Source of the DNA: the human T2T-CHM13v2.0 reference genome, Homo sapiens
Direction: 5' to 3' (one strand)
Length of the DNA: 64,000 nucleotides
NCBI RefSeq assembly: GCF_009914755.1
Contig: NC_060935.1
Shown: one piece after another, positions 28,610-34,430 of the stretch
How the letters are laid out: every line of letters starts with the position of its first letter
Position numbering within the stretch: position 1 is the stretch's first letter
Made by a program: the position numbers and the translations under genes
Notes under the pieces: generated by a model
What the model saw: the letters and a program-made list of their open reading frames with translations, nothing else
Told to the model about the DNA's origin: nothing
The model's database searches: none

Positions 28610-28762
28610 ATTAGCCAAGCATTGTGGCACACGCCTGTAATCCTAGCTACTCAGGAGGCTGAGGCAGGAGAATGGCTTGAACCCAGGAGACAGAGGTTGC
28701 AGTGAGCCGAGATCACACCATTGATGGGACAGAGTGAGACTGTCTCAAAAACAGAAAAAAAA
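28610..28762 (+). mobile_element. Alu right monomer only
   Basis: Begins TTAGCC directly after the L1 tail. Confidence 0.8.
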
Positions 28763-29232
28763 ATGTGCATCCAGTAATGTGATCATACCCTCCCTCTTTC
28801 CCCTCCAACCCACTTACCCTCTTTAAATTTAGGAGCTCTCAAAATCACCTTTGGAAAACAGTATGGACCACAGATTGTTCCTGTGGATTTTATGATCCTT
28901 TTCTCTGTCCATGTCCTTAACTTTGGCAAAAATAAACTTTTAAATTGAGTGAGACCTGTCTCAGATACTTTTTGGTTTACAGTCATGAGTCAATAATAAA
29001 CAGAAGGAAAAACCCAAATGACCTATAAATGTATAAAATAATACGCAGGCCAGGTGCAGTGGCTCATGCCTGTAATCCCAGGCCAGGTGCAGTGGCTCAT
29101 GCCTGTAATCTGGATACACAGGATGGAGCACCCAGAGAGGCCATGGAACCTCTGCACCCCTTCCTGCATGTCTTACCCCATGCATCTCTTTGTTTGTATC
29201 CTTTAAAATAGCCTTTGTAATAAACTGGTAAG

Positions 29233-30200
29233 TGAAGGGGTGGGTTGCCCCTCCACACCTGTGGGTGTTTCTCGTAAGGTGGAATGAGAGACTTAGGAAA
29301 GAAAAAGAAACAGAGACAAAGTATAGAGAAAGAAATAAGGGGGCCCGGGGAACCAGCGTTCAGCATATGGAGGATCCCGCCAGCCTCTGAGTTCCCTTAG
29401 TATTTATTGATCATTCCTGGGTGTTTCTCCGAGAGGGGGATGTGTCAGGGTCACAAGACAATTGTGGGGAGAGGGTCAGCAGACAAACACGTGAACAAAC
29501 GTCTTTGCATCATAGACAAGGTAAAGGATTAAGTGCTGTGCTTTTAGATATGCATACACATAAACATCTCAATGCTTTACAAAGCAGTACTGCTGCCCGC
29601 ATGTCCCACCTCCAGCCCTAAGGCGGTTTTTCCCTATCTCAGTAGATAGAACGTACAATCAGGTTTTATACCGAGACATTCCATTGCCCAGGGACGGGCA
29701 GGAAACAGATGCCTTCCTCTTGTCTCAACTGCAAGAGGCATGCCTTCCTCTTATACTAATCCTCCTCAGCACAGACCCTTTACGGGTGTCGGGCTGGGGG
29801 ACGGTCAGGTCTTTCCCTTCCCACGAGGCCATATTTCAGACTATCACATGGGGAGAAACCTTGGACAATACCTGGCTTTCCTAGGCAGAGGTCCCTGCGG
29901 CCTTCCGCAGTTTTTGTGTCCCTGGGTACTTGAGATTAGGGAGTGGTGATGACTCTTAAGGAGCGTGCTGCCTTCAAGCATCTGTTTAACAAAGCACATC
30001 TTGCACCGCCCTTAATCCATTCAACTCTGAGTTGACACAGCACATGTTTCAGAGAGCACGGGGTTGGGGGTAAGGTTATAGATTAACAGAATCTCAAGGC
30101 AGAAGAATTTTTCTTAGTACAGAACAAAATGGAGTCTCCTATGTCTACTTCTTTCTACACAGACACAGTAACAATCTGATCTCTCTTGCTTTTCCCCACA
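29233..30200 (-). mobile_element. HERV-K(HML-2) LTR5_Hs solo LTR, copy 1
   Basis: Minus strand TGTGGGGAAAAGCAAGAGAGATCAG...CCCCTTCA, 968 bp; TSD GGTAAG. Confidence 0.95.
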
Positions 30201-30578
30201 GGTAAGTGTAAGTAAGTGTTTGCCTGAGTTCTGTGAGCTGCCCTAGCAAATTAACCAAACCCAATGAGGAGGTCCTGGGAACCCCAGTTTATACACAGCT
30301 AATCAGAAACACAAGTAAAACAACCTGAAGCTGGCAATTCACATCAGAAGTTGGGGAGAATCTTGTGCAACTGAGCCCTCAACCTGTGGGATCTGACATT
30401 ATCTCCAATTAGTGTCAAAATTGAACAGAATGAGAGGACACACAGCTGATGTCTGCTGCAGAATTGATGAATGAGTAGTTGGTGGGGACAAATCACACAT
30501 TTCTTGGTGAGCAGAGGTCACAGAAGACGTTTTGTTGATTATTGTTGAATGAGAGAATAGAAAAAGCACGTTGTTTTT

Positions 30579-31030
30579 TTTCATGCGCGTCCGTGTGAAG
30601 AGACCACCAAACAGGTTTTGTGTGAGCAATAAAGCTTTTAATCACCTGGGTGCAGGCGAGCTGAGTCCGAAAAGAGAGTCAGCAAAGGGAGATAGGGGTG
30701 GGGCCGTTTTATAAGATTTGGGTAGGTAAAGGAAAATTACAGTCAAAGGGAGTTTGTTCTCTGGCAGGCAGGAGTGGGGGTTGCAAGGTGCTCAGTTGGG
30801 GAGGTTTTTGAGCCAGGATGAGGCCAGGAAAACGACTTTCACAAGGTAATGTCATCACTTAAGGTAAGGACCGGCCATTTTCACTTCTTTTGTGGTGGAA
30901 TGTCATCAGTTAAGGTGGGGCAGGGCATATTCACTTCTTTTGTGATTCTTCAGTTACTTCAGGCCATCTGGGCATATACGTGCAAGTCAGAGGGGATGCA
31001 ATGCCTTGGCTTGGGCTCAGAGGCCTGACA
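30579..31030 (-). mobile_element. HERV-H LTR7-family solo LTR
   Basis: Minus strand TGTCAGGCCTCTGAGCCCAAGC...CGCGCATGAAA; TSD TTTTT. Confidence 0.92.
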
Positions 31031-31575
31031 TTTTTTATTCCTACAGTCTCAGAGGAATATAGCTAAAAATGTGTTTACAGAGAAGTTTATAGTATTAGCT
31101 TATATTAGAAAAGAAGATATGTCTCAAATCAATGATCTAAGCTTTTACCTCAAGGAAGTAGGGGAGCCAGGTTTTCAGCAATTGGCCAGAAAAGAAAAAA
31201 AAAGAAGGGGGAGGAAGCATATGAAAACCAAAACAAGCAAAGAAAGAAAATGTAATAAAGATAGAAGAAGTAATAAATAAAGTAGAAAAAGAAAAAAATC
31301 AATCAGTCTAAAGCTGGTTCTTTGAGAAGATCAATAAAATTGATAAACCTCTAGCCCAGGGGGTCAGCAGAGACCCAAGTAATAAATATGTTAGGCCTCG
31401 CATGCCAGGAGGCCACACAATCTGCCACTGTAGCACAAAAGCAGCCATAGACAATACAAAAATAAATGAGAATAGCTGTATTCATGGGTCTTGTAAGACA
31501 GGCAGTGGGCCCAGTTTGGACTGGTTTGGATCTGTGTCCCATGCCAAATCTGTGTCCCATGTTTGGGCCCCACAT

Positions 31576-32543
31576 TGTAGGGGTGGGTTGCCCCTACACA
31601 CCTGTGGGTGTTTCTCATAAGGTGGGACGAGAGATTTGGAAAAGAAAAAGACACAGAGACAAAGTATAGAGAAAGAAATAAGGGGGCCCGGGGAACCAGC
31701 GTTTAGCATATGGAGGATCCCCCCAGCCTCTGAGTTCCCTTAGTATTTATTCATCATCTGTGGGTGTTTCTCAAAGAGGGGGATGTGTCAGGGTCACAAG
31801 ACAATTGTGGGGAGAGGGTCAGCAGACAAACACGTGAACAAAGGTCTTTGCATCATAGACAATGTAAAGGATTAAGTGCTGTGCTTTTAGATATGCATAC
31901 ACATAAACATCTCAATGCTTTACAAAGCAGTATTGCTGCCCGCAGGTCCCACCTCCAGCCCTAAGGCGGTTTTTCCCTATCTCAGTAGATGGAGCATACA
32001 ATCGGGTTTTATACCGAGACATTCCATTGCCCAGGGACGGGCAGGAGACAGATGCCTTCCTCTTGTCTCAACTGCAAGAGGCATTCCTTCCTCTTTTACT
32101 AATCCTCCTCAGCACAGACCCTTTACAGGTGTCGGGCTGGGGGACGGTCAGGTCTTTCCCTTCCCACGAGGCCATATTTCAGACTATCACATGGGGAGAA
32201 ACCTTGGACAATACCTGGCTTTCCTAGGCAGAAGTCCCTGCGGCCTTCCGCAGTTTTTGTGTCCCTGGGTACTTGAGATTAGGGAGTGGTGATGACTCTT
32301 AAGGAGCGTGCTGCCTTCAAGCATCTGTTTAACAAAGCACATCTTGCACCGCCCTTAATCCATTCAACTCTGAGTTGACACAGCACATGTTTCAGAGAGC
32401 ACGGGGTTGGGGGTAAGGTTATAGATTAACAGAATCTCAAGGCAGAAGAATTTTTCTTAGTACATAACAAAATGGAGTCTCCTATGTCTACTTCTTCCTA
32501 CACAGACACAGTAACAATCTGATCTCTCTTGCTTTTCCCCACA
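31576..32543 (-). mobile_element. HERV-K(HML-2) LTR5_Hs solo LTR, copy 2
   Basis: 968 bp, ends CCCCTACA; TSD CCACAT. Confidence 0.95.
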
Positions 32544-32549
32544 CCACAT

Positions 32550-33017
32550 TGGAGCTTAGCCCATGAAAGAATTCAAGGATGAGCCTATGGTGAGAGAAGG
32601 CAACTTTTTTGAACCAGTACTGCTCCTTGCAGAGCAGGACTAACCCATAGGCAGCGGGCTGAGTTGGCAACATATGGGCTGTTGGCAGCTGTACTTATAC
32701 CCACTTTTAATTATATGCTAATTAAGAGACGGGTTATTCAGAACTTTCTGGAAAAGGGTGGAGAGTTTCCAGAACCATCTAAGGTAACTTCCAGGCCATT
32801 ACCATGGCCTATTGCAATGGTATTTGTAAACTGTCATGGCACTGGTGGGAGTGTCTTATGCTAATGAGCAGTGAGGGCAAATAGAGGTCACTTCCATCAC
32901 CCTCTGCTAGTTTTGGCTGGCTTCTTCACTGCATACTGTTCTGACCACATCCTGCTCCAATCAACATGATCAACAGGGCTGCAACGAGAAAGCAAGTCCT
33001 GCCAGCCTCCTACCTCG
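32550..33017 (-). mobile_element. MER51-like ERV1 LTR
   Basis: Minus-strand start resembles (T)GAGGTAGGAGG; internal gtaaactgtcatggc..tggtgggagtgtc motif. Confidence 0.6.
32874..32890 (+). promoter_or_regulatory. DR5 retinoic acid response element, about 5.25 kb upstream of the PLAAT4 ATG
   Basis: AGGGCA-aatag-AGGTCA, a direct repeat with 5-nt spacer; PLAAT4 is a known retinoid-induced gene. Confidence 0.7.
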
Positions 33018-33163
33018 CTACTATAGTAGGTTAGTGGAGGGGGAACATTTCCTTGTCCCAAATTCCAGCCAGAGTCTTTCTCAACATCTAAATACTGAAT
33101 GCTGCCATGGCTTCAAATAAATTTGCAATGAAAAAACATATTTTTAAATGGCTTTCTATTTTG

Positions 33164-33836
33164 CTGCAGGAAAGGAAAACAAAATCTCGGGACCCAAACT
33201 CACTAAGCCAAAGGGAAAATTCAAGCTAGGAATTGGGTCACCCAAACCTGCCTCCCATTTTGTTCCTAAATAGATAGCTACAAAAATAAAAAGCTATATA
33301 ACTCCCTAACAATTTGCTCACAATGGAATTCTTTGTGAGCCCCAAGATCTTCACCCTAAAACAGTTCTGCTGAATGACACCCTGATGATGTAAATTGACA
33401 GCTTATCATCACAGGTATGGGAGAAAGGACAGAACTATAAGTCATCCCTCCATTCACCTGAGACAAATGCATATTTGACTGCTTATATAAAAATCCAGAT
33501 TCACTAAGCATGAAATGAATGCATAATTAACTATTCCTCTACCCCCTCCTTTCACATGTAAAATGCAGATTCAGTGAATGCTGATCAAAGACTCAAAGGA
33601 ATGCAACCACTTGCCTCTTTTATCTACCCTCCCTTTTTTTCCCTTTTCTCTTTCCCCTAATGCCCACACTTTTCCCTTTAAATAATGATGTCCCCAGACG
33701 CACTTTGGAAAAAGCACGAATCACAGATGTTTCCTATGGTTTTCTGTTCCTTTTTTCCTGGATGTGTCCTAAACCTTAGCTAAATAAATCTCTAAATTTT
33801 TGACTGAAAGCTGTCTCAAATATTTTTTGGGTTACA
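33164..33836 (+). mobile_element. MER4-group ERV1 LTR
   Basis: gaaaggaaaa..ggacccaaactcactaagccaaaggg start; ends ggttaca. Confidence 0.6.
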
Positions 33837-34430
33837 GCAGCTATTGCATCTAGATATACAATATAAATTAATGTAAAATATCATATGCTTGTAATTTCAT
33901 ACATGCTAGAGATATCATCCCAATCAGGGAAAGCTGCAAGAAGAAAGTGTTGGTGGTAAAGCACAACTTCCTAGATTTTTGCTGTCAGTGGGCTGGTTGG
34001 AATTTAAACTCTTTGAGTATTAAAAACAAATCAGTCTTCATAACTGATTATTTCTGCTATTATTGTTACCTATTGGAGCCTCTAGGAAAAAAAGAGGCAA
34101 TAGAGAAAGAGAGGCAGTCTCCGTTGCTAATGTGCTCTTGTGGGATTAGATGTCTGATCCTTTGGAGCAGACCATCCATCCTGATGTGGGTCAGTTTGGA
34201 CTCCAAGTCTGACAAAGCAGAACAGGCTTCAGAAAGCCTTGTTTGTCACTTGGAATACAGCCGTCACTCCTGCAGCATCTAAGCTTTGGTGCTGCTGAAG
34301 AAAGGCCACTGGCTGTTTTGGAGTCCTGCATTCACAGACCCCAGCTGCCTGGAACTGACTCTAAGCTAAAACCTGACACTATCTACCACAAGCTGTTTCA
34401 ACCTCAGCACAAGCTGCAATGAACTGGAAG

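What the first reader, a model, noticed from the sequence alone, without database searches (positions are those of the whole stretch)
29233..33017. Stacked ERV cassette upstream of PLAAT4: LTR5_Hs + LTR7 + LTR5_Hs + MER51-like LTR, a candidate composite primate enhancer
Seen: four solo LTRs, all on the minus strand, within 3.8 kb and 5.1-8.9 kb upstream of the PLAAT4 ATG. Both LTR5_Hs keep the octamer-like ATGCAAAG (29503-29510 and 31846-31853). The MER51-like LTR adds two ATGCTAAT octamers (32715 and 32858) and a DR5. Established: LTR5_Hs (naive pluripotent/germline) and LTR7 (HERV-H, pluripotent) act as OCT4-bound enhancers. Inference: successive germline integrations built a module that could link an interferon/retinoid-inducible lipid enzyme to early-embryo and germ-cell transcription. 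This is the best candidate for an undescribed system in the window.
Basis: partly seen in the sequence, partly recalled or inferred. Interest (0 to 1): 0.8.

Follow-up and report, generated by a model that had tools for sequence, protein, structure and literature searches.

The report
Known LTR enhancer cluster upstream PLAAT4
Four leftover retroviral control sequences of very different ages lie stacked upstream of the human PLAAT4 gene, and the youngest kind has already been published as a switch that raises this gene's activity in human stem cells, so the finding is real but not new.

Summary
Four solo LTRs lie on the minus strand at 29233-33017. Two are 968-bp HERV-K(HML-2) LTR5_Hs-type LTRs, at 29233-30200 and 31576-32543, each with its own perfect 6-bp target-site duplication. 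One is a 452-bp HERV-H LTR7 at 30579-31030. One is an old LTR of about 467 bp at 32550-33016, whose name "MER51" I could not test. The quoted octamer positions are correct. The "DR5" is a one-mismatch match at chance frequency.

They are separate integrations of very different ages: roughly 30-55 My for the old LTR, about 10-20 My for LTR7, and under about 8 My for each LTR5. The second LTR5 is nested in the old LTR.

The enhancer reading is supported but not new. RefSeq already lists hESC (OCT4-NANOG-H3K27ac) enhancers over the first LTR5 and over the LTR7, and a K562 activating tile over the old LTR. A 2022 paper (PMC9577543) reports a human-specific LTR5_Hs upstream of RARRES3 (=PLAAT4). 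It describes H3K4me3, higher expression in human than chimpanzee iPSCs, loss on LTR5_Hs-CRISPRi, and an alternative start site.

Cooperation between the LTRs as one composite module is untested. Verdict: real, ordinary in kind, already described; low interest.

The parts
29227..29232 (.). Target-site duplication of LTR5 copy A, left copy (GGTAAG)
   Evidence: Read; identical 6 bases at 30201-30206.
29233..30200 (-). Solo LTR, HERV-K(HML-2) LTR5_Hs type, copy A, 968 bp
   Evidence: Gap-free alignment with copy B. 39 other full-length genomic copies at 97-98% identity. Nearest copy differs at 17 of 968 positions. 9 positions agree with fewer than 10% of the other 41 copies; 4 positions are strictly private.
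29503..29521 (-). SOX-like hexamer plus octamer-like 8-mer of copy A (LTR positions 680-698)
   Evidence: The 8-mer is kept. The SOX-like half carries a one-base variant shared by 9 of 42 copies. The site lies inside the POU5F1-SOX2 dual-motif region 652-712 named in PMC9577543.
30201..30206 (.). Target-site duplication of copy A, right copy
30579..31030 (-). Solo LTR, HERV-H LTR7 sensu stricto, 452 bp, with an internal tandem duplication
   Evidence: 39 other copies at 93-95% identity, some in pairs 5.4-8.3 kb apart; 92.7% identity over positions 1-452 to the LTRs at the annotated starts of ESRG and LINC-ROR, and 94.0% over 4-452 to that of LINC00678. Only fragments at 82-84% match the UCA1 LTR. 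Both flanks hold old unrelated repeats, so it is solo. A run of T on both sides makes its target-site duplication uninformative.
31570..31575 (.). Target-site duplication of LTR5 copy B, left copy (CCACAT)
   Evidence: identical 6 bases at 32544-32549.
31576..32543 (-). Solo LTR, HERV-K(HML-2) LTR5_Hs type, copy B, 968 bp, nested near the 3' end of the old LTR
   Evidence: 39 other full-length copies at 98-99% identity. Nearest copies differ at 12 of 968 positions. 6 positions have low share and 3 are strictly private. One copy with 13 differences abuts a RefSeq model named 'endogenous retrovirus group K member 21'.
31846..31864 (-). SOX-like hexamer plus octamer-like 8-mer of copy B (LTR positions 680-698)
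   Evidence: the hexamer form is shared by 31 of 42 copies and the 8-mer by 37 of 42.
32544..32549 (.). Target-site duplication of copy B, right copy
32550..33016 (-).
   Evidence: 40 other matches at 71-83% identity, most starting at one shared position, some in pairs 5.7-13.3 kb apart; relatives run on for about 45 more bases past the point where copy B sits and end in CA; 4.6-6.8% low-share positions in this copy, against a panel median of 7-12%.
33170..33837 (+).
   Evidence: 39 other places with matches at 73-84% identity, most with a shared start; an AATAAA and a terminal ...TTACA. It coincides with the RefSeq hESC enhancer at 33175-33834.

Best explanation
This is a pile of independent solo LTRs left by at least three unrelated endogenous retrovirus families, inserted into the LGALS12-PLAAT4 gap tens of millions of years apart.

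An old LTR came first, roughly 30-55 My ago. An HERV-H LTR7 came about 10-20 My ago. Two HERV-K(HML-2) LTR5_Hs came within about the last 8 My. Each LTR5_Hs was a separate integration followed by LTR-LTR recombination to a solo LTR, and one landed inside the old LTR.

The regulatory effect comes mainly from the LTR5_Hs copies. They carry the family's POU5F1-SOX2 composite site. In pluripotent and embryonal-carcinoma cells they act as an orientation-independent enhancer of PLAAT4 (RARRES3), 5.6-8.8 kb downstream. According to print, they also create an alternative start site.

The LTR7 and the older LTRs are separately annotated reporter-active enhancers.

Shown here: the anatomy, the families, the independence and the relative ages. 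Taken from annotation and print: the enhancer activity and the link to PLAAT4. Inferred: that LTR5_Hs is the main driver.
For: Independent integrations. Each LTR5 copy has its own perfect 6-bp duplication, and the two duplications differ from each other. A and B differ at 32 of 968 positions. Neither appears in the other's top-40 list. They share only 1 rare variant.

Family. Both are 968 bp with no gaps and are 97-99% identical to at least 39 full-length copies each. A 35-base stretch of copy B has 226 genomic sites at up to 2 mismatches, against 0 for the control pattern. A near-identical copy abuts an annotated group K provirus model. PMC9577543 names the LTR upstream of RARRES3 as LTR5_Hs. 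The LTR7 is 92.7-94% identical over its full length to the LTRs at the ESRG, LINC-ROR and LINC00678 starts.

Ages. Low-share positions number 9 of 968 (A), 6 of 968 (B) and 10 of 451 (LTR7); the old LTR has 4.6-6.8%, with its panel at 7-12%.

Function. RefSeq enhancer records lie over A, the LTR7, the old LTR and the fifth repeat. Three of chr11's 95 records with the label OCT4-NANOG-H3K27ac lie in these 4.6 kb. PMC9577543 reports H3K4me3, higher RARRES3 in human than chimpanzee iPSCs, loss on LTR5_Hs-CRISPRi and an alternative start site. Fuentes 2018 (PMC6158008, passages) reports 275 LTR5HS-regulated genes, independent of orientation, including cases 2-17 kb upstream in divergent orientation.
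Against: No RefSeq hESC enhancer record covers copy B, the copy nearer to PLAAT4. I cannot tell whether that reflects inactivity or poor read mapping.

The text of PMC9577543 does not say which of the two copies is human-specific. The figure and supplement that would show it were not visible.

My estimate for copy A (about 3-7 My, with a Poisson range up to about 14 My) could predate the human-chimpanzee split.

Both copies point away from PLAAT4. The published alternative start site spliced to PLAAT4 exons must therefore be antisense to the LTR or lie in its flank, and I could not check this.

The main text of Fuentes 2018 never names RARRES3, and RARRES3 is not among the four genes with chimeric transcripts in NCCIT cells.

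That the RefSeq labels derive from the ChIP-STARR-seq study (PMC6084406) is my recollection plus matching vocabulary, not a tool result.

Reporter activity does not prove that PLAAT4 is the target of the LTR7 or the old LTRs.
Confidence: 0.8

Rival explanations
1. Composite module. The four or five LTRs cooperate as one multi-age enhancer unit, like a small super-enhancer. Its joint action, not that of any one LTR, couples PLAAT4 to early-embryo and germ-cell transcription.
For: Three OCT4-NANOG-H3K27ac hESC enhancer records and one K562 activating tile lie within 4.6 kb. PMC9577543 says that human-specific LTR5 insertions induce H3K4me3 for 2 kb on both sides. The LTR7 lies within 2 kb of both LTR5 copies.
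Against: No data seen address cooperation. Triplets of hESC enhancer records within 4.63 kb are common on chr11 (386). The elements arrived tens of millions of years apart, each by its own integration. Searches for this gene together with naive or primed pluripotency or with LTR terms found nothing beyond PMC9577543. No germ-cell evidence for this locus was found.
Confidence: 0.15
2. Alternative promoter rather than enhancer. Transcription starts in or beside an LTR5_Hs and is spliced to PLAAT4 exon 1 or 2, and this transcript accounts for the human-biased expression.
For: PMC9577543 states this for the insertion upstream of RARRES3 and contrasts it with the other examples, which 'likely served as enhancers'.
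Against: Both LTR5 copies are antisense to PLAAT4, so the canonical LTR promoter points away from the gene. RefSeq lists no PLAAT4 transcript starting upstream of 38070. In NCCIT cells, chimeric transcripts above 1 TPM were seen for only four genes, and RARRES3 is not one of them. The supporting figure is in a supplement I could not see.
Confidence: 0.3
3. The two LTR5 copies are the two ends of one gutted provirus, or products of a local duplication or gene conversion, rather than separate integrations.
For: They have the same orientation, lie 2343 bases apart and are both 968 bp long.
Against: Each copy has its own matching 6-bp duplication, and the two duplications differ. The copies differ at 32 of 968 positions, yet each has closer relatives elsewhere in the genome (12 and 17 differences). 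They share only 1 rare variant. The sequence between them is an old repeat, an LTR7 and short old repeat pieces, not HERV-K internal sequence.
Confidence: 0.02
4. Passive pile-up. The LTRs accumulated in a tolerant, repeat-rich gap and have no effect on any gene in vivo. On this reading the annotation reflects only episomal reporter activity and bulk family-wide CRISPRi effects.
For: The region is a mosaic of nested repeats. About 0.3 chance LTR5_Hs pairs at this spacing are expected genome-wide (hand arithmetic). Barakat 2018 notes that not all transposable elements of one type are active enhancers.
Against: PMC9577543 reports locus-specific H3K4me3 and a human-versus-chimpanzee expression difference for RARRES3.
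Confidence: 0.1

Closest known systems
LTR5_Hs (HERV-K HML-2) solo LTRs acting as distal enhancers in embryonal carcinoma and pluripotent cells (Fuentes et al. 2018, PMC6158008; Hirata et al. 2022, PMC9577543)
   Same: Same family by sequence: 968 bp, 97-99% identical to many copies. Same POU5F1-SOX2 site region. Same kind of placement as published cases, which lie 2-17 kb upstream and are sometimes divergent. This very locus is named in print.
   Different: Two copies from different source lineages lie 2.3 kb apart with an LTR7 between them. Copy A has a variant SOX-like half-site, shared by 9 of 42 copies. Print reports an alternative start site here although the LTRs are antisense to the gene.
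LTR7 / HERV-H promoters and enhancers of human pluripotent cells (Carter et al. 2022, PMC8912925; Barakat et al. 2018, PMC6084406)
   Same: 92.7-94% identical over its full length to the LTRs at the starts of ESRG, LINC-ROR and LINC00678. It has an internal tandem duplication like the block 2a/2b described for the 7up and 7u1 subfamilies. It is annotated as an OCT4-NANOG-H3K27ac hESC enhancer.
   Different: It is solo, with no provirus and no annotated lncRNA. It carries more private changes (10 of 451) than most of its 21 nearest relatives (3-12). The choice between 7up and 7u1 is not resolved.
MER51 LTR family
   Same: It is LTR-like: about 510 bp in relatives, with a TATA-like box followed by an AATAAA-like signal, a terminal CA, and paired copies 5.7-13.3 kb apart.
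   Different: Membership could not be tested.

Membership tests
HERV-K(HML-2) LTR5_Hs | Full-length LTR of about 968 bp with TG...CA ends (length recalled) | tested here: met
   Both copies are 968 bp. They begin with TG and end with CA on the minus strand, and they align without gaps to each other and to most of the 40 panel copies.
HERV-K(HML-2) LTR5_Hs | Short target-site duplication of 5-6 bp flanking a solo LTR (size recalled) | tested here: met
   There are perfect 6-bp duplications, different for A and B.
HERV-K(HML-2) LTR5_Hs | High identity to many young genomic copies, including LTRs of annotated group K proviruses | tested here: met
   A matches at 97-98% and B at 98-99%, each to 39 other full-length copies. 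One of these copies abuts a RefSeq model named 'endogenous retrovirus group K member 21'.
HERV-K(HML-2) LTR5_Hs | POU5F1-SOX2 dual motif at LTR positions 652-712 (PMC9577543) | tested here: met
   The octamer-like 8-mer lies at positions 691-698 in both copies (kept in 37 of 42 copies). The SOX-like hexamer lies at 680-685. It is in the common form in B (31 of 42) and in a one-base variant in A (9 of 42).
HERV-K(HML-2) LTR5_Hs | Distinction from the older LTR5A and LTR5B subfamilies | not testable with these tools
   No LTR5A or LTR5B reference is at hand. Print calls the RARRES3-upstream insertion LTR5_Hs and says that all human-specific LTR5 insertions are LTR5_Hs.
LTR7 (HERV-H) | Full-length similarity to LTRs that drive known HERV-H transcripts | tested here: met
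   It is 92.7% identical to the ESRG and LINC-ROR LTRs (positions 1-452) and 94.0% to the LINC00678 LTR (positions 4-452). Only fragments at 82-84% match the LTR at UCA1, which is called LTR7C in the abstract of PMC10962953.
LTR7 (HERV-H) | Relatives occur as paired LTRs at proviral spacing | tested here: met
   Pairs lie 5.4-8.3 kb apart on C14, C11 and C3. One such pair differs at 17 of 450 positions.
LTR7up / 7u1 subfamily (Carter 2022) | Block 2b arose as a tandem copy of block 2a; an 8-bp insertion carries the SOX2/3 motif | tested here: inconclusive
   An internal tandem duplication is present (positions 87-132 and 137-183, 81-85% cross-matches). I had no subfamily references with which to place the 8-bp insertion or to separate 7up from 7u1.
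MER51 | Sequence match to the family reference | not testable with these tools
   No human repeat library is available. Only LTR-like anatomy and an old age are shown.
Retinoic-acid response element, DR5 type | Two RGKTCA half-sites spaced by 5 bases | tested here: not met
   There is no exact match in the region. One match with a single mismatch lies at 32874-32890. The window holds 7 such matches against 6.35 expected.
Pluripotent-cell enhancer | Transcription-factor or histone ChIP recovery plus reporter activity | not tested
   This is taken from RefSeq functional-element records over A, the LTR7 and the fifth repeat. No such record covers B.

The most novel reading that the evidence does not exclude
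Two LTR5_Hs insertions from different source lineages landed on either side of an older LTR7 and inside a still older LTR. Together they turned a set of weak, ancient LTR enhancers into one human-lineage, pluripotency-specific regulatory block. This block drives PLAAT4 through antisense initiation from an LTR5_Hs. It would be a case of younger retroviral LTRs re-awakening older ones.
Probability: 0.12. Interest if true: 0.45.

Novelty: already known. Interest (0 to 1): 0.22.

Why it matters
PLAAT4 (RARRES3) is an interferon- and retinoid-inducible lipid enzyme. A human-lineage LTR5_Hs that switches it on in pluripotent cells is a neat example of species-specific gene regulation by a young endogenous retrovirus. 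But that point is already in print (PMC9577543), and the enhancers are already in RefSeq.

What this check adds is anatomy:
- There are two LTR5_Hs copies, not one, from different source lineages, both antisense to the gene.
- One of them is nested in an older LTR.
- The LTR7 between them is of the structural type that is active in embryonic stem cells.

The antisense orientation makes the published 'alternative start site' worth a second look in existing RNA data.

Tried and rejected
One gutted provirus or a local duplication as the origin of the two LTR5 copies. Rejected: their target-site duplications differ, they differ at 32 of 968 positions, each has closer relatives elsewhere, and they share only 1 rare variant.

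Gene conversion between A and B. Rejected on the same counts.

DR5. Rejected as chance.

Tail of the old LTR on the far side of copy B. A search with 31480-31575 alone found only itself. The alignment of relatives shows that about 45 bases are expected beyond the insertion point. The window also appears to lack about 20 bases just before it. The tail at about 31550-31569 is too short and too diverged to confirm.

Dating the old LTR from pairwise distances. The window copy is closer to each relative (K2P 0.21-0.27) than the relatives are to each other (median 0.36). The relatives were picked by similarity to the window copy, so I treat this estimate, and the low-share count, as biased towards a younger age.

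Rows dropped. In one search, 2 of the 8 fetched old-LTR copies were dropped, and the same 2 of 28. These are near-duplicates of others, at 0.3% and 2.3% distance.

Parts used. I used 20 of the 39 listed relatives for A, 20 of the 39 full-length relatives for B, 21 of 39 for LTR7 and 28 of 40 for the old LTR.

Literature searches that found nothing further:
- LTR5_Hs + PLAAT4: 0 papers.
- RARRES3 + HERV: 16 papers, only PMC9577543 relevant by title and abstract.
- A six-term search including PLAAT4: none of the 25 listed papers holds PLAAT4.
- RARRES3 + chimpanzee + pluripotent stem cells + human-specific: the same paper only.
- RARRES3 + naive + primed + pluripotent: 0 papers.

Supplements I could not see may settle which copy is human-specific, the size of the CRISPRi effect and the transcript structure. 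These are supplementary fig. S5C and table S2 of PMC9577543, the gene tables of PMC6158008 and the BED files of PMC6084406. I did not ask for them, because the brief says they are closed.

Rates used for ages are recalled, not from a call: about 0.13% per My per lineage for hominoids, and about 2.2e-9 per site per year for older repeats. The Poisson ranges are hand arithmetic.

Papers, and what I saw of each:
- PMC9577543: section 10 and passages of the methods.
- PMC8912925: outline, sections 5 and 6, and passages.
- PMC6084406 and PMC6158008: passages only.
- PMC10962953: search listing and abstract start only.
- Others named: listing only.

Full report
**What is there**

Reading 28800-33500 and aligning the two long direct repeats shows two gap-free 968-base copies on the minus strand.
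- Copy A lies at 29233-30200 and copy B at 31576-32543.
- Each begins with TG and ends with CA.
- Each is flanked by its own perfect 6-base duplication. A has GGTAAG at 29227-29232 and 30201-30206. B has CCACAT at 31570-31575 and 32544-32549.

Between them, at 30579-31030 (minus strand), lies a 452-base element. Its bounds come from the shared ends of 39 genomic relatives and from full-length blastn matches.

To the right of B, at about 32550-33016 (minus strand), lies an old LTR-like element. Its 40 other genomic matches mostly start at one shared position.

The second quoted 8-mer lies on the + strand, antisense to its LTR.

The 'DR5' is a one-mismatch match at 32874-32890. The window holds 7 such matches against 6.35 expected by chance.

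**Families**

*Copies A and B.*
- A is 97-98% identical, and B 98-99% identical, to 39 other full-length copies each. These were scored out of about 2700 first-look candidates.
- A 35-base stretch of B has 226 genomic sites at up to 2 mismatches, against none for the control pattern.
- One near-identical copy (13 differences from B) abuts a RefSeq model named 'endogenous retrovirus group K member 21'.
- PMC9577543 calls the insertion upstream of RARRES3 (the older name of PLAAT4) LTR5_Hs.
- The octamer-like 8-mer sits at LTR positions 691-698, and a SOX-like hexamer sits at 680-685. Both fall inside the POU5F1-SOX2 dual-motif region 652-712 given in that paper.
- The 8-mer is kept in 37 of 42 copies. 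B has the common hexamer form (31 of 42). A has a one-base variant shared by 9 of 42 copies.
- I could not test A and B against LTR5A or LTR5B references.

*The 452-base element.*
- It is 92.7% identical over positions 1-452 to the LTRs at the annotated starts of ESRG and LINC-ROR, and 94.0% over positions 4-452 to that of LINC00678.
- It matches the UCA1 LTR only in fragments at 82-84%. That LTR is called LTR7C in the abstract of PMC10962953.
- Its relatives occur in pairs 5.4-8.3 kb apart.
- It is therefore LTR7 sensu stricto of HERV-H.
- It has an internal tandem duplication, like the block 2a/2b that Carter et al. describe for the 7up and 7u1 subfamilies. I could not separate those two.
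- Both flanks hold old unrelated repeats, so it is solo.

*The fourth element.*
- It is LTR-like. Relatives show a TATA-like box followed by an AATAAA-like signal and a terminal CA. Some occur in pairs 5.7-13.3 kb apart.
No tool here can test it.

**Independence and nesting**

A and B differ at 32 of 968 positions. Each has closer relatives elsewhere in the genome, at 17 and 12 differences. Neither is in the other's top-40 list. They share one rare variant. Together with the different target-site duplications, this rules out a gutted provirus, a local duplication and recent gene conversion.

Relatives of the old LTR run on for about 45 bases past the point where B sits. So B is nested near the 3' end of the old LTR. 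The short tail on the far side could not be confirmed.

A sits inside another old repeat (30207-30575, 71-78% identity to its relatives).

**Ages**

I counted the positions at which a copy agrees with fewer than 10% of its panel.

| Element | Low-share positions | Strictly private | Approximate age |
|---|---|---|---|
| LTR5 copy A | 9 of 968 | 4 | 3-7 My |
| LTR5 copy B | 6 of 968 | 3 | 2-5 My |
| LTR7 | 10 of 451 | not counted | about 17 My |
| Old LTR | 4.6-6.8% (panel median 7-12%) | not counted | roughly 30-55 My |

- The counts come (A and B; LTR7; old LTR).
- The ages for A, B and LTR7 use a recalled rate of about 0.13% per My. The age for the old LTR uses a recalled rate of 2.2e-9 per site per year.
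- Poisson ranges are wide: up to about 14 My for A and 10 My for B, and about 8-31 My for LTR7.
- The LTR7 estimate agrees with the 10-20 My that Carter et al. give for 7up and 7u1.
- The old-LTR counts are biased low, because its panel was picked by similarity to this copy.
- Print calls the RARRES3 insertion human-specific, meaning absent from panTro5 by liftOver. The visible text does not say which copy.

**Function**

RefSeq functional-element records:
- 'OCT4-NANOG-H3K27ac hESC enhancer' at 29205-29866. This covers the part of A that holds the POU5F1-SOX2 site.
- The same label at 30529-31188, covering the whole LTR7.
- The same label at 33175-33834.
- A 'K562 Activating' tile at 32739-33033, in the old LTR.

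The third hESC record coincides with a fifth old LTR-like repeat on the + strand, at 33170-33837.

Three of chr11's 95 records with this exact label lie in these 4.6 kb. However, tight triplets of hESC enhancer records are common on chr11 (386).

No record covers B.

The label vocabulary matches the four ChIP libraries of Barakat et al. (PMC6084406). That study also found LTR7 among the repeat families most enriched at highly active enhancers. The link between the RefSeq label and that paper is my recollection.

PMC9577543 reports the following for the LTR5_Hs upstream of RARRES3:
- human-specific H3K4me3;
- higher expression in human than chimpanzee iPSCs;
- loss of expression on LTR5_Hs-CRISPRi (data of Fuentes et al.);
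- an alternative start site spliced to exon 1 or 2.

Fuentes et al. (PMC6158008, passages) show that LTR5HS elements act as orientation-independent distal enhancers for 275 genes. Their main text does not name RARRES3.

**A point worth noting**

Both LTR5 copies point away from PLAAT4. The published alternative start must therefore be antisense to the LTR or lie in its flank. RefSeq has no PLAAT4 transcript starting upstream of 38070. I could not see the supplementary figure.

**Is the stacking more than chance?**

With 635 LTR5_Hs copies in 3.117 Gb, about 0.3 chance pairs within 2.3 kb are expected genome-wide (hand arithmetic).

Among the 91 exact pattern sites listed, the only pairs closer than 10 kb are four at proviral spacing (8.2-8.5 kb) and one tandem array on chromosome 8. 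Copy A, with two mismatches, is not in that list.

Four of four LTRs on one strand has p = 0.125, and the fifth repeat is on the other strand. The stack is a mild rarity, not a signal.

**Verdict**

The enhancer reading is supported by public annotation and by print. For that same reason it is not an undescribed system. Nothing I could see addresses cooperation of the LTRs as one module, or any germ-cell link at this locus.

Novelty: already known. Interest: low.

Noticed in passing
window 33170-33837 (+): A fifth old LTR-like repeat, 73-84% identical to 39 other genomic places, with an AATAAA and a terminal ...TTACA. It coincides almost exactly with a RefSeq 'OCT4-NANOG-H3K27ac hESC enhancer' at 33175-33834. 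It is on the opposite strand to the four listed LTRs.
   Followed up: partly
window 30207-30575, and probably 29111-29232: LTR5 copy A is inserted into an old interspersed repeat that is 71-78% identical to its relatives (more than 1600 first-look candidates). I could not name its family.
   Followed up: partly
window 28780-28981 (+): This is the 3' end of another old repeat, 78-88% identical to 40 other copies, ending ...GGTTTACA just left of the cluster.
   Followed up: no
window 29046-29110: A 32-base unit that looks like the head of an Alu occurs twice in tandem with 100% identity at a spacing of 33 bases. A third copy, 69% alike, lies at 28611-28642.
   Followed up: no
window 31530-31561: A short direct repeat with an 18-base period lies immediately left of LTR5 copy B, in what may be the diverged tail of the old LTR (read).
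   Followed up: no
window 32550-33016: The old LTR is absent from the list of soft-masked stretches, although at least 40 relatives exist. The LTR7 is masked only in part, at 30577-30785 and 30832-30990. The mask therefore under-reports old repeats.
   Followed up: no
G000 C8, about 91.808-91.811 Mb: A head-to-tail array of LTR5 copies has 847-base spacing between pattern sites. It is the only non-proviral close pairing among the 91 listed sites.
   Followed up: no
L045/L046 (G000 C24 and C23) and L044/L048 (G000 C1): Relatives of the old LTR include an X/Y pair differing by 0.33% and a pair of chromosome 1 copies (at 142.8 and 148.8 Mb) differing by 2.3%. These look like recent segmental duplications carrying the repeat.
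   Followed up: no
window 29205-29866 versus 31576-32543: RefSeq lists an hESC enhancer over LTR5 copy A, which has the variant SOX-like half-site. It lists none over copy B, which has the common form and is nearer to PLAAT4. Poor read mapping or a real difference could explain this.
   Followed up: no
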